A stretch of 63,596 nucleotides of DNA, counting the filler, from Stramenopiles sp. TOSAG23-6 (lineage: Eukaryota): NCBI GenBank assembly GCA_900128565.1. It is 14 parts of 14 records of this genome, joined end to end, with 100 filler letters (N's around TTAATTAATTAA, not from the genome) between each part and the next. Parts side by side here need not be neighbours in the genome. Positions count along the whole stretch, not along the records: positions 38,819 to 45,164 come from LT636714.1; 13 more parts are not named here. One strand, written 5' to 3'. This document shows, piece after piece, positions 40,064 to 42,268 of this stretch (the stretch's first letter is position 1; every line of letters begins with the position of its first letter). The notes beneath the pieces are model-generated. The model was not told the DNA's origin, searched no databases, and was given only the letters and a program-made list of their open reading frames with translations. The position numbers and the translations under genes were made by a program.

Positions 40064-42268
40064 CTAAAGATTGTCCATGTTGAATAAATTGTCAATCTGA
40101 TCAAGGTCCATGTCATTTGTTATCCGTTCAAAGTTATCAAGATTATCTCCGGACCCAAAAGAAGGTAAGTCTCCCGATAGCCGTTGAGTCATATTTGAAA
40201 TTGTGCAATTTGAACCATTTGAAATTCTTGGAGCTGTTTTAGGCGAAAAATCTAAACCTGTATTACCGTCAAATGAACCTAAAGAAGCTAATTTACCATT
40301 TGAGTATATATTAGTCCCCAAAAAATATTTAGCAGCATCTATTGATGTTTGAGAACTATCACTCACACGCCTTGACGTCTGTTCTTTTGGCGATGCTCGT
40401 TGAGAACTACCACTCACACGTCTTGACGTCGGTGGTTGTGCCATTTGGTTTTGGTCTAGTAGCATTCTTCGGAGATGTATTGTGAAAAATATTTGTTTCA
40501 GTCAAAAAATTCATTAGGTATAAAATTTTGTTTTCATAAAAAAAATAAATAATTTTGAAATGATGAAAACATAAATGTTCATTATCTTCACGTAATTTTA
40601 GTAATTCAGCGTGTGAAAGAGTTCGCTTTGGTGACAAATAAAGTGGAACTCCATTTGGTGAATATGCTGTAGGATCTCCATTTGGTGAATATGCTGTTGG
40701 AGAAATATGAAAGGGTATTGTACCATTTGGAGAAATATTTGTGGACGATAACGTTTGCGGGGGTTGATCTACGTTATTATTTTGCGTCGACGGCTTATAA
40801 GGACTATGTCTAGGTGGCATAGGTGGCATCGAATTTGGTATTGAAAGCGGGGGTGGAGGAGGAACGCGACCATTTGGATGTAATGGATACGGGACAGCTT
40901 TTTTTTTCCGCCGGGCAAGCGTTTGACGACGAATTTTCACATCATTTGGTGTCCTATTATCTAAATGAGCTGCAATCGATGCCCAACGATTTCCCAATAA
41001 TCTATTCTGCTCTATAATAATATCATCTTCCTCCTTAGTCCACTTGCCTTTATTCAACTTTGGGTTTAAATGATTTATCCATCTCTCACGGCATTGCTTA
41101 GGTGTTCGCCCTTTACATCCAGTATTCGATATTTGCCGATAATTATACCCTTCATTTATCATACGAATTAACATTTGATCCTCCGCAAGAAGCCACTGAC
41201 CTTTACGTAAACCTGGTCGTAGCACTTTTTGCCAGCGCTGGCGGCATTGGACGTGGTTACGAGAGCCAACTAGTGAGGCAATACCTTTCCAATTACCAGC
41301 ACCATATTTATTAACTGCCTGGGTAAGTAGTGCATCTTCCTCTGGTTGCCAACGTTTAGGACGTTTGTGTCTTTGAACAGGTTTGATCTTAACAGTTTTG
41401 CCATGTAAACCAACTGATAGACAAGCAACTTCTGGAGAGGATTTTTTTGACCTTGACGCTCTCACTCTTCTTGGTTTTGTTTTTTCGGGGCTTCTCGTTT
41501 TCGTGTCGACTTGCGTACCATAAGTAATGTGAAAAAATAATTTTCTTTTTGATTAAAAAAAATCGTTAGATACAACCAACCTTGGTACAACATTGCATAT
41601 GAAAAAAAAAATGAATGATTGAAAAACGTACAATTTGCATTAAACATTGTTACACCGGATACGCCAAGACTTAACCGTCTCGTGTTGAGTATCTTTGTTT
41701 GGGAAGTATCTGGTAAAAGATGATAATTTGACTTTGGTCTTTGACGTTTCAGGGTACCTTTATTAGGATAACTTCTATTACTCGGTGGAAAAGACGTAGG
41801 ACTGTGTCCTGAGTTCTGTAGAGGATTCCAATTTGGTTCCATTTTAAAGCTTTGCCAATTTTTTAAGTCGGGATACATAGACTCTGATACTGGAGCTGTT
41901 TTCAAGAACTTGGCAAGATTCTTTCCATTATCATTTTCAAAGTTTTCAATAGCCTCGCGAATATCTTGGTCTCCTCGAATAATGGAGTCTTTCAGAACAC
42001 TTTTCTGATACTCGGTAATCACACCAGCCTTGAAAAGGAAAGAAGTTTTATGGAGAAGATAAGATATTGGGCGATTGTTATCGGCATTACCTTTTGTATC
42101 CTCTAAGATATTATTTATGTCTATGGAACTCAGATCTTCAAACCCAGAACTGGGGGATATAATTGTTCCCTTAGTTGCTGAAATATCGGGAACAAGTAAG
42201 TCATCCATCCAAACACCCGAATTGAGATTGACCTTCTTCACTTCTTCTACCTTATCAACATTCATCAT
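40064..42268 (-). CDS. Three-repeat Myb transcription factor; introns 41522-41631 and 40475-40574
   Basis: WQPEED...QCRQRW, KGQW...QCRERW, KGKWTKEED...GNRWASIA; intron removal fuses three ORFs. Confidence 0.9.
40475..40574 (-). mobile_element. Family intron, TT...AT (both ends non-canonical)
   Basis: CAT|TTATGTTTTCATC...ATACCTAAT...CACAATAC-AT|CTCCGA joins DNEH|LRRMLLDQ. Confidence 0.75.
41522..41631 (-). mobile_element. Family intron, GT...TT
   Basis: Joins NAN|YGTQVD...PRRVRASRSKK into the Myb frame. Confidence 0.82.

What the first reader, a model, noticed from the sequence alone, without database searches (positions are those of the whole stretch)
40475..40574. Introns non-canonical at both ends (TT...AT in Myb; CT...AC in DPAGT1)
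These copies begin TTATGTTTT and CTACGTTTT, so +1 G is replaced, and they lack AG. For the Myb intron, the nearest GT (+5) joined to the nearest downstream AG creates a TAA stop. Established knowledge: the first and last intron bases interact during the second splicing step. Tolerance at both ends suggests that interaction is relaxed, or that element structure guides excision.
Basis: partly seen in the sequence, partly recalled or inferred. Interest (0 to 1): 0.72.

Follow-up and report, generated by a model that had tools for sequence, protein, structure and literature searches.

The report
Transposon-derived introns without GT or AG
Two short introns in a marine protist's genes are worn copies of a mobile element that is cut out of the RNA without the usual GT and AG end signals, a rare style of splicing so far described in only a few other organisms.

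Summary
On the minus strand, 40574..40475 (100 nt, Myb gene) begins TTATGTTTT and ends ACAT. 52325..52217 (109 nt, DPAGT1 gene) begins CTACGTTTT and ends ATAC. Both are copies of a roughly 100-nt MITE-like "introner" with 48 model hits in this 63.6-kb window. Of 28 mapped 5' ends, 26 start GT; none of 20 mapped 3' ends is AG.

A polyA-RNA contig shows a sibling copy in the same Myb gene spliced exactly at the element ends, as GT..TT, TG..CT or TT..AC. For the two flagged copies, removing exactly 100 and 109 nt at the element ends gives the best colinearity with orthologous proteins. Every GT..AG alternative scores lower.

Caveats:
- A 4-nt repeat (ACAT) makes five cut registers equivalent for Myb, and one of them is AT..AC.
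- The only RNA-library contig over the Myb copy is unspliced.
- Folding does not support structure-guided excision.

A source's name for the identical protein suggests a MAST marine stramenopile. I found no paper describing such introns there. The phenomenon itself is known from Fritillaria and Amoebophrya. Verdict: real, a new member of a known kind, of moderate interest.

The parts
40475..40574 (-). Myb intron, 100 nt: a worn copy of the introner family. It begins TTATGT (family: GTAYGT) and ends ATACAT. Equivalent registers are TT..AT, TT..CA, AT..AC, CA..TA and AC..AT.
   Evidence: (model positions 2-111, E 7.5e-11; it was one of the seeds)
40513..40520 (-). TACCTAAT, the copy's version of the family's conserved TACCTAAC motif (putative branch site), about 39 nt before the 3' end
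   Evidence: its role as branch site is inferred from likeness to the yeast UACUAAC box (recalled)
40575..41521 (-). Myb exon with three Myb DNA-binding repeats, ending ...LKLREDNEH
   Evidence: PF00249, E 5.1e-38; P0152, E 1.4e-55
40064..40474 (-). Last Myb exon (136 codons plus stop), starting LRRMLLDQ. It is reached only if 100 nt (a length that is 1 modulo 3) are removed.
   Evidence: polyA-RNA contig X7 covers 40287-40444
41522..41631 (-). Sibling family intron in the same gene (110 nt, GTACGT...TTACTT). A polyA-RNA contig shows it spliced. Registers are GT..TT, TG..CT or TT..AC.
   Evidence: (X7 record 15 joins 41521 to 41632, 67 letters on the shorter side, 2 letters fit either side)
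41632..42292 (-). Upstream Myb exon (open frame; its 5' limit was not determined)
52217..52325 (-). DPAGT1 intron, 109 nt: family copy beginning CTACGT and ending ATATAC (CT..AC). TC..TA and AT..AT give the same protein (His codon CAC instead of CAT). AC..AT gives L in place of I.
   Evidence: (model 2-109 = 52328..52218)
52326..52862 (-). DPAGT1 exon A, ending ...YFTTGGSTH
   Evidence: (human DPAGT1 chains, E 1.3e-20)
52072..52216 (-). DPAGT1 exon B (ISFPAGHH...FYFVYA plus the first base of the next codon)
51962..52071 (-). DPAGT1 family intron 2 (GT..GT; the upstream exon also ends GT)
51925..51961 (-). DPAGT1 exon C (..[11 protein letters not shown]..)
   Evidence: colinear with P0003
51831..51924 (-). 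DPAGT1 family intron 3 (GT..AT). Using the next AG instead breaks the frame.
51774..51830 (-). DPAGT1 exon D ([19 protein letters not shown]), followed at 51773 by another family 5' end that runs into the contig end

Best explanation
Both stretches are spliceosomal introns that arose by insertion of a roughly 100-nt MITE-like introner.

The element: it runs GTAYGTTTT ... TTTCGTACGAAA ... TACCTAAC ... T-rich ... AATAC. It has short inverted ends (GTAT/ATAC) and a 2-nt target duplication, mostly AT.

How it is removed: the element brings its own 5' splice site (GTAYGT), a branch-site-like box and a T-rich tract. It has no AG. The 3' cut falls at a fixed place at the element's end, so the element plus one copy of the duplication is removed and the reading frame is restored.

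The two flagged copies: in the Myb and DPAGT1 copies the element's first base has mutated (G to T, G to C). In DPAGT1 the last bases also differ. The functional mRNA still needs removal of exactly 100 and 109 nt at those ends. The organism's splicing machinery therefore tolerates non-G at the element's first position and non-AG at the 3' end, as the U2 spliceosome of Fritillaria borealis does.

Shown here: the sequences, family membership, RNA-level splicing of a sibling copy with a non-AG end, and best ortholog colinearity for excision at the element ends.

Inferred: that the two flagged copies are spliced in vivo, the exact cut register, and that a U2-type spliceosome does it.
For: Family:
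- nhmmer with a model built from 13 window copies gives 61 hits at E<=1 and 48 at E<1e-3 in 63.6 kb. The seeds match by construction.
- Of 28 mapped 5' ends, 26 start with G, 1 with T and 1 with C. The base before is T in 28 of 28.
- All 20 mapped 3' ends end in T, never AG.
- The last two intron bases co-vary with the last two exon bases in the non-AT cases: TT/TT at 41631/41522 and at 17965/17778, and GT/GT at 52071/51962.

Frame test:
- The family register joins the longest upstream frame to the longest downstream frame in 11 of 14 full copies, where one in three is expected.
- The 12th (51924) is confirmed by ortholog colinearity.
- The 13th (DPAGT1) fits once the model's own 3' end, 52217, is used.

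RNA and DNA:
- PolyA-RNA contig X7 joins 41521 to 41632, skipping 110 nt that coincide with model positions 5-110.
- The DNA contig of X2 keeps that stretch, so the removal happens in RNA.

Myb:
- Among 3339 in-frame open junctions tried, the top score against ortholog P0152 (97) is reached only by 100-nt excisions: the five equivalent element-end registers and one at +3 (TG..TC) that gives the same protein.
- The best GT..AG junction scores 65, and retention scores 49.
- The upstream exon's end aligns to P0152 576-592 and the downstream exon starts at 593.

DPAGT1:
- Among 1345 junctions, the top summed score over 5 homologues is 2484, for 109 nt at 52325-52327. The best GT..AG junction scores 2412.
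- The T-to-P spacing of 5 residues seen in all 5 homologues is kept only by 109-nt excisions.

Precedent: F. borealis has fewer than 10% GT/AG introns and they are removed by the U2 spliceosome (PMC13326754; introduction and sections 21 and 30 read).
Against: - The only RNA-library contig that bridges the Myb copy (X8, non-polyA library, 40440-40688, depth 3.3) is unspliced. It may be pre-mRNA, DNA carry-over or true retention.
- The Myb ortholog evidence is moderate. Taken alone, the downstream exon aligns to P0152 593-652 only at E 10, and the upstream end at E 0.017.
- Neighbouring 100-nt registers score almost as well: TC..AG at 40566..40467 scores 95.
- For DPAGT1, CT..AC (796 against P0003) and AC..AT (794) cannot be told apart.
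- The spliceosome's components could not be examined because no genome is held.
Confidence: 0.7

Rival explanations
1. Same intron, different chemistry. The real cuts lie 2 nt upstream at both ends (register NN..AC), so most family members are AT..AC introns. The Myb copy is then ATTTATGT...AATAC with the classical A-C first/last pair, and the mutated base is +3. No relaxation of the first/last-base rule would be needed for Myb.
For: - The Myb exon end ACAT equals the intron end ACAT, so AT..AC gives the identical mRNA.
- The upstream dinucleotide is AT in 17 of 28 copies.
- In the by-eye 3' alignment, TAC occupies positions -5 to -3 in all 20 ends. For DPAGT1 that is my alignment at 52215; the model's own alignment ends at 52217.
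- U2-type spliceosomes can process AT/AC introns (PMC13326754, section 30).
Against: - It cannot be general. 11 of 28 copies have TT, GT or CT upstream.
- None of the three registers of the RNA-proven sibling starts with A.
- For DPAGT1 the -2 register gives AT..AT, not AT..AC.
- The conserved GTAYGT looks like a U1/U6-type 5' splice site starting at G (inference).
Confidence: 0.3
2. The G-to-T change has crippled the Myb intron. It is mostly retained, and the protein ends 56 codons into the read-through (stop at 40407-40409), so it lacks its C-terminal exon.
For: The X8 RNA-library contig covers 40440-40688 without a gap. The upstream frame stays open through the intron.
Against: - A 136-codon open frame follows in exactly the frame that 100-nt removal produces.
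- It is colinear, though weakly, with the ortholog's junction block and acidic tail.
- The X8 library is not polyA-selected and may hold pre-mRNA or DNA.
- PolyA contig X7 covers 40287-40444.
Confidence: 0.12
3. Cryptic canonical GT..AG sites are used instead, as the source's own gene model does for DPAGT1.
For: In-frame, open GT..AG pairs exist. For Myb they are 40570..40456 and 40591..40456. For DPAGT1 it is 52321..52189, which reproduces the P0002 model ...GGSTHLPAIIDV.
Against: - They delete blocks that are conserved in the orthologs. Myb scores 65 and 52 against 97. DPAGT1 scores 757 against 796 with P0003, and lower in 5 of 5 homologues.
- The sibling and two further DPAGT1 family introns demonstrably do not use AG.
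Confidence: 0.04
4. Consensus or assembly error: the true first base is G.
For: The draft assembly is made of short contigs, and many of them break inside family copies.
Against: - The independent X8 contig agrees at 40574.
- Two different substitutions occur in two genes.
- Other positions of the same sub-family also vary: GTTCGT at 59576 and GTATAT at 59836.
- DNA for DPAGT1 was not checked.
Confidence: 0.03
5. Excision is guided by pairing of the element's inverted ends, or happens without the spliceosome, as proposed for Amoebophrya introners and Euglena nonconventional introns.
For: The ends GUAU and AUAC are complementary and leave a 2-nt overhang. They pair in the minimum-energy fold of 4 of 14 copies.
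Against: - There is no end pairing in the folds of the Myb and DPAGT1 copies or of 8 others.
- Fold energies are close to those of shuffled sequence in most copies.
- GTAC copies show no compensating change at the 3' side.
- The element carries ordinary 5' splice site, branch and T-tract signals.
Confidence: 0.05

Closest known systems
Non-canonical, MITE-derived U2 introns of Fritillaria borealis and F. pellucida (Henriet et al. 2019, not read, known only through citations; Soo et al. 2026, PMC13326754, sections read)
   Same: - Short, repeated, transposon-like introns with inverted ends and target duplications.
- 3' ends in AT or AC instead of AG.
- A pyrimidine-A-pyrimidine triplet as the last three bases (CAT in 17 of 20 here).
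- Often the same triplet before the 5' site (12 of 28 here, my count).
- Many different 5' dinucleotides are tolerated.
   Different: - The organism here appears to be a MAST stramenopile, not a tunicate.
- The dominant 5' end here is a good GTAYGT, whereas F. borealis mostly has AG/AC and AG/AT.
- Whether U2AF is duplicated or snRNA methylation altered, as in F. borealis, could not be tested.
Introner elements of Micromonas pusilla, Aureococcus anophagefferens and others (review PMC11282704, passages; Gozashti et al. 2022, PMC9860276, passages)
   Same: - A multi-copy DNA-transposon-like element with TIR and TSD.
- It carries one splice site and restores the mRNA when the element plus one TSD copy is removed.
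- It occurs in an aquatic protist, and Aureococcus is also a stramenopile.
   Different: Those families use GT/GC/GA at the 5' end and AG at the 3' end, the AG often being supplied by the TSD. Here the TSD supplies AT, TT or GT and no AG is used (0 of 20).
Amoebophrya non-canonical introners (PMC7789003, passages)
   Same: Non-GT/AG borders, direct repeats overlapping the exon/intron borders, inverted repeats, and borders that are ambiguous because of the repeats.
   Different: - Amoebophrya elements have 8-20-nt inverted repeats forming hairpins and no common terminal dinucleotides, and U1 was reported missing.
- Here the inverted ends are about 4 nt, end pairing is not supported, and the 5' site is U1-like.
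U2-type and U12-type AT-AC introns
   Same: One valid register of the Myb copy, and of the 17 of 28 copies preceded by AT, is AT..AC.
   Different: - The 5' end is not the U12 box (A/G)TATCCTT.
- The TACCTAAC box lies about 35-40 nt from the 3' end, not 10-20 nt. These U12 features are recalled, not taken from a call.
- The register cannot apply to the RNA-proven sibling.

Membership tests
Introner elements (transposon-derived spliceosomal introns) | Many similar copies sitting as introns in unrelated genes | tested here: met
   - 48 model hits at E<1e-3 in 63.6 kb.
- Copies lie in the Myb, DPAGT1, HAD-hydrolase, LOG-like and other genes.
Introner elements (transposon-derived spliceosomal introns) | Terminal inverted repeats and target-site duplication | tested here: inconclusive
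   - The ends GTAT/ATAC are complementary, but only about 4 nt plus a T/A run.
- A 2-nt duplication is suggested by co-variation in 3 non-AT cases.
- Two full copies mismatch: CT/AT at 8931 and GT/AT at 15318.
Introner elements (transposon-derived spliceosomal introns) | Removal restores an uninterrupted reading frame | tested here: met
   - 11 of 14 copies pass the frame test.
- Two more pass by ortholog colinearity.
- One is shown by an RNA joint.
Introner elements (transposon-derived spliceosomal introns) | Canonical GT/GC..AG borders, as in the described families | tested here: not met
   0 of 20 3' ends are AG. Using the next AG breaks the DPAGT1 frame.
Fritillaria-type non-canonical U2 introns | Non-GT/AG termini removed at RNA level | tested here: met
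   The X7 polyA-RNA joint gives GT..TT, TG..CT or TT..AC, while the X2 DNA contig keeps the stretch.
Fritillaria-type non-canonical U2 introns | YAY triplet as the last three intron bases and often just upstream of the 5' site | tested here: met
   - The last three bases are CAT in 17 of 20, with CTT in 2 and CGT in 1.
- An upstream YAY occurs in 12 of 28 (my count).
- The rule is taken from PMC13326754, section 21.
Fritillaria-type non-canonical U2 introns | Host is a fritillariid larvacean with duplicated U2AF and altered snRNA m6A | tested here: not met
   - The identical protein P0002 carries a source name containing MAST.
- U2AF and snRNAs are not testable because no genome is held.
- Only a tRNA was found by Rfam in the window.
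U12-type (minor spliceosome) introns | 5' box (A/G)TATCCTT and a branch box close to the 3' end | tested here: not met
   - The family 5' end is GTAYGTTTT.
- TACCTAAC lies about 35-40 nt from the 3' end.
- The U12 consensus is recalled, not taken from a call.
Hairpin-guided introners (Amoebophrya) and Euglena nonconventional introns | Stable pairing of the two intron ends | tested here: not met
   - The ends pair in 4 of 14 minimum-energy folds.
- There are 0 end pairs in the two flagged copies.
- z-scores run from -4.1 to +0.5, and most are near 0.
DNA-level excised elements (ciliate IES-like) | Genomic DNA molecules that lack the element | tested here: not met
   - The joined form of the sibling was seen only in an RNA run.
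- DNA contigs of X2 run through both Myb copies.
- Only one DNA run was laid.

The most novel reading that the evidence does not exclude
A marine stramenopile (MAST lineage) has evolved, independently of tunicates and dinoflagellates, a spliceosome that sets the 3' cut by position at the end of an introner: a fixed step after the TAC of the element, downstream of a TACCTAAC branch box. The cut is not set by AG. The same machinery no longer needs G at the first intron base, so the first/last-base check of the second splicing step is relaxed genome-wide. The published gene models of such genomes would then be systematically wrong wherever these introns sit.
Probability: 0.35. Interest if true: 0.75.

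Novelty: new member of a known kind. Interest (0 to 1): 0.55.

Why it matters
Introns that break the GT..AG rule on a large scale are known from very few lineages: Fritillaria, Amoebophrya, Polarella and euglenids. Each new case is an independent experiment on how far the spliceosome's end recognition can drift after an invasion of transposon-derived introns.

This family is unusually informative for three reasons:
- It keeps a textbook 5' site and branch box but has no AG, so it isolates the 3' site question.
- The two flagged copies add natural point mutants of the first base.
- The DPAGT1 copy is a natural test of the cut register, because the joint codon would read CAT or CAC.

There is also a practical consequence. 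The source's own model of DPAGT1 (P0002) uses a cryptic GT..AG and loses conserved residues. Gene catalogues of such uncultured protists are therefore likely to be distorted wherever these introns occur.

Tried and rejected
- Spliced RNA over the Myb copy. No RNA contig of X7, X8 or X10 joins across 40475-40574. Cover by these metatranscriptome contigs is sparse (5 to 12 of 30 bins), so this says nothing either way.
- Spliced protein fragments. Two searches with the last Myb exon found only P0001, an ORF of a 1993-nt DNA-like contig, at near length, and nothing among longer proteins.
- Exon B of DPAGT1 alone against solved structures: no hit.
- My first idea, that the window is a fritillariid tunicate. 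I dropped it when the identical protein P0002 turned out to carry a MAST name.
- Family core in JGI metagenome contigs. The 22-mer gave 0 hits. The 19-mer gave 2 hits, L001 and L002, both unrelated on reading. A wider count of non-G copies was therefore not possible.
- No whole genome is held, so the genome-wide count and the search for snRNAs and U2AF were not done.
- Earlier notes of this scan: none by place, sequence or words.
- X2 'joints' 40496/40498 to 41554, with 21-22-letter sides. I read these as contigs of other family copies or repeat cross-links, not as deletions.
- Which 109-nt register DPAGT1 uses, and which 100-nt register Myb uses, could not be settled from protein colinearity.
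- Structure prediction, complex prediction and the protein atlas were not used. Nothing here turns on a fold.
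Full report
**What the window is.** It is AT-rich eukaryotic DNA with GC 0.21-0.41. It is built from short contigs joined by 44 N + TTAATTAATTAA + 44 N linkers. The contigs are about 6.4 kb, then about 1.1 kb. No whole genome is held. Pfam names ordinary eukaryotic genes: an EF-Tu-type GTPase, a mitochondrial carrier, Vps36, a kinase, RCC1, ankyrin proteins and a three-repeat Myb. The window's own DPAGT1 model, P0002 (100% identical over 179 aa), carries a source name containing 'MAST'. I therefore take the organism to be an uncultured marine stramenopile. This is an inference from a name, not a test. My first guess, a fritillariid tunicate, was wrong.

**The observation.** On the minus strand the Myb frame ends ...LKLREDNEH at 40575. 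A 136-codon frame starts with LRRMLLDQ at 40474. The 100 nt between them begin TTATGTTTTCATC and end CACAATACAT. The GT at +5 joined to the next AG gives TAA. In DPAGT1 the exon ends ...GGSTH at 52326. The next 109 nt begin CTACGTTTTCATC and end CACAATATAC, and the frame resumes with ISFPAGHH.

**The family.**
- Both stretches align over their whole length with a repeat found all over the window.
- A profile built from 13 copies gives 61 hits at E<=1 and 48 at E<1e-3. The two flagged copies were among the seeds, so their E-values are not independent.
- The consensus is T|GTAYGTTTT ... TTTCGTACGAAA ... TGTACCTAAC ... T-run ... GAAATATTTTTC(C/A)(A/C)AATACAT|.
- Of 28 mapped 5' ends, the first base is G in 26, T in 1 (Myb) and C in 1 (DPAGT1). 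Position 2 is T in 28. The base before is T in 28.
- Of 20 mapped 3' ends, the last base is T in 20 and the one before is A in 17, T in 2 and G in 1. None ends in AG. In that table I placed the DPAGT1 3' end by eye at 52215. The profile's own alignment puts it at 52217.
- The non-AT endings go with the same dinucleotide at the end of the upstream exon: TT/TT twice and GT/GT once. The element proper runs GTAT...ATAC, and those ends are reverse complements.
- This is the signature of a small DNA transposon with a 2-nt target duplication. Two full copies mismatch (8931 and 15318).
- The two flagged copies belong to the more diverged '...TTTTCATCAT...CACAATACAT' sub-family. That sub-family also holds GTTCGT (59576) and GTATAT (59836) starts.

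**Are family copies removed at the element ends?**
- Frame test: for 11 of 14 full copies, removal from the G to the final T joins the longest open frame upstream to the longest downstream, where one in three is expected. By my own arithmetic the binomial chance of that is about 7e-4.
- The three misses:
  - 15318 is followed at once by GTAAGT.
  - 51924 has short exons, and the register is confirmed by homology.
  - The DPAGT1 copy I had tested with the wrong 3' end.
- RNA: a polyA metatranscriptome contig (X7, 212 nt) joins 41521 to 41632, with 67 letters on the shorter side and 2 letters that fit either side. The 110 nt it skips are exactly model positions 5-110 of a sibling copy in the same Myb gene. 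The joint reads ...NAN|YGTQ... in frame. Its possible termini are GT..TT, TG..CT or TT..AC, and none has AG. None has a G-G or A-C first/last pair.
- The DNA contig of X2 runs through that stretch, so the removal is at RNA level.
- In DPAGT1, two further family introns (GT..GT and GT..AT) give ...[31 protein letters not shown]. This is colinear without gaps with the 64%-identical ortholog P0003. Using the next AG for the third intron breaks the frame.

**The Myb copy itself.**
- RNA evidence is thin and points the other way. The only RNA-library contig that bridges it is unspliced (X8, not polyA-selected, 249 nt, 40440-40688, depth 3.3). That could be pre-mRNA, DNA in the library or retention.
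- The same contig does confirm the base. It has one differing letter, and that run's kinds of change cannot create a G at the first intron base.
- Comparative evidence favours splicing. P0152 is a 783-aa Myb on a 3133-nt contig, matching the upstream exon at E 1.4e-55. It reads RTMTREELKRLKKENEQLRLMLLGG where the window reads RTLSHAELLKLREDNEH|LRRMLLDQ.
- In an exhaustive trial of 3339 in-frame, open junctions, the best score (97) is reached only by 100-nt excisions: the five equivalent registers at the element ends and one at +3. The best GT..AG scores 65, and retention scores 49.
- Taken singly the pieces are weak:
  - The upstream end aligns to 576-592 at E 0.017.
  - The downstream exon aligns to 593-652 at E 10.
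  - The acidic tail aligns to 735-766 at E 0.14.
- Their exact abutment and order are what carries weight. I rate this as moderate evidence. A nearby register with a 3' AG but a TC start (40566..40467) scores 95 and is excluded only by the family alignment.

**The DPAGT1 copy.**
- Among 1345 junctions, the best fit to five homologues is a 109-nt excision at 52325..52217 (CT..AC) or its two neighbours (TC..TA, AT..AT). All three give ...STH-ISFPAGHH.
- AC..AT gives L for I and scores two points less with P0003.
- The GT..AG choice of the source's model scores 757 against 796, and is lower with all five homologues.
- All five homologues have five residues from the conserved T to the conserved P. 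Only the 109-nt excisions keep that spacing.

**Register.** The duplication makes the borders ambiguous. For Myb, TT..AT, TT..CA, AT..AC, CA..TA and AC..AT give one mRNA. No cDNA can tell them apart, and 'the +1 G is replaced' holds only in the first. AT..AC would be the classical alternative pair. It cannot be the general rule, because 11 of 28 copies are not preceded by AT and the RNA-proven sibling has no A-first register.

**Structure.** The inverted ends pair in the minimum-energy fold of only 4 of 14 copies, and not at all in the two flagged ones. Fold energies are mostly like those of shuffled sequence. I reject structure-guided excision as the leading idea.

**Comparison with what is known.**
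- Fritillaria: F. borealis has fewer than 10% GT/AG introns and F. pellucida has 44% 3' AT. Both show the YAY triplets, and all classes are removed by the U2 spliceosome.
- Amoebophrya has over 60% non-canonical introns with direct and inverted repeats (PMC7789003, passages).
- A review lists these cases with Polarella and euglenids (PMC11282704, passages).
- Classical introners use AG (PMC9860276, passages; that text holds neither 'stramenopile' nor 'MAST').
- Literature searches for this lineage:
  - 'MAST-3' + 'introns' + 'non-canonical' gave 0 papers.
  - 'introner' with MAST-3, MAST-4, Nanomonadea or Incisomonas, at least 2 terms, gave 49 papers. 15 were listed, and none of the listed holds 'introner'.
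  - 'introner' + 'stramenopile' + 'non-canonical' gave 6 papers, 5 listed, none on MAST by title.
  - In three MAST genome papers, 'intron' occurs twice (methods only), 0 times and 0 times.
- Limits of the literature check: I did not see supplements or Henriet et al. 2019, and subscription journals are not searched.

**Verdict.** The finding is real. It is best read as two decayed copies of a transposon-derived intron family whose 3' end never uses AG. The host tolerates loss of the first G as well. The kind is known. The lineage appears to be new for it. The exact cut register and the splicing efficiency of the Myb copy remain open.

Noticed in passing
window 6376-6475, 12851-12950, 19324-19423 ... 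62489-62588: The window is a chain of contigs joined by 44 N + TTAATTAATTAA + 44 N, sorted by falling length (about 6.4 kb, then about 1.1 kb). Many contig ends fall inside family copies, so the repeat breaks the assembly.
   Followed up: partly
window 52189-52321 (-) and protein P0002: The source's own DPAGT1 model uses a cryptic GT..AG and reads through other family introns (...GPFYFIVIFFLKYFSYYIYAGLNG...). Gene models of this assembly are probably wrong wherever the family sits.
   Followed up: partly
family copies, e.g. window 15350-15361, 47284-47295: A perfect 12-nt palindrome, TTTCGTACGAAA, lies just upstream of the TACCTAAC box in most copies. It causes opposite-strand model hits. It may be a transposase or protein binding site.
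   Followed up: no
window 17778-17965 (-), 46109-46284 (+), 61253-61381 (-): Composite or tandem family copies: two partial units in one intron-like stretch. At 15414 a GTAAGT follows directly after a copy's end.
   Followed up: no
window about 29478-29492 and 46050-46067: Short internal TTAGGG telomere-like repeats (TTAGGGTTAGGG).
   Followed up: no
window 37704-37776 (-): One tRNA gene (Rfam RF00005, 67 bits). It is the only Rfam match at gathering score in the window.
   Followed up: no
window 38545-38690; 46672-46800 and 48350-48700: A T-run of more than 100 nt, and long AAT/ACT-type triplet repeats inside open frames (Asn/Thr-rich low-complexity coding sequence?).
   Followed up: no
window 40496-40498 joined to 41554-41555 in DNA run X2: Short DNA contigs of an independent seawater metagenome jump between the two Myb family copies or run on into other sequence. 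These are most likely other copies of the repeat elsewhere in that genome.
   Followed up: no
protein P0001 versus window 40067-40474 (-): An independent seawater contig encodes the last Myb exon with 2 amino-acid differences (N to K, S to L) in 133 residues. This is population variation in the same species.
   Followed up: no
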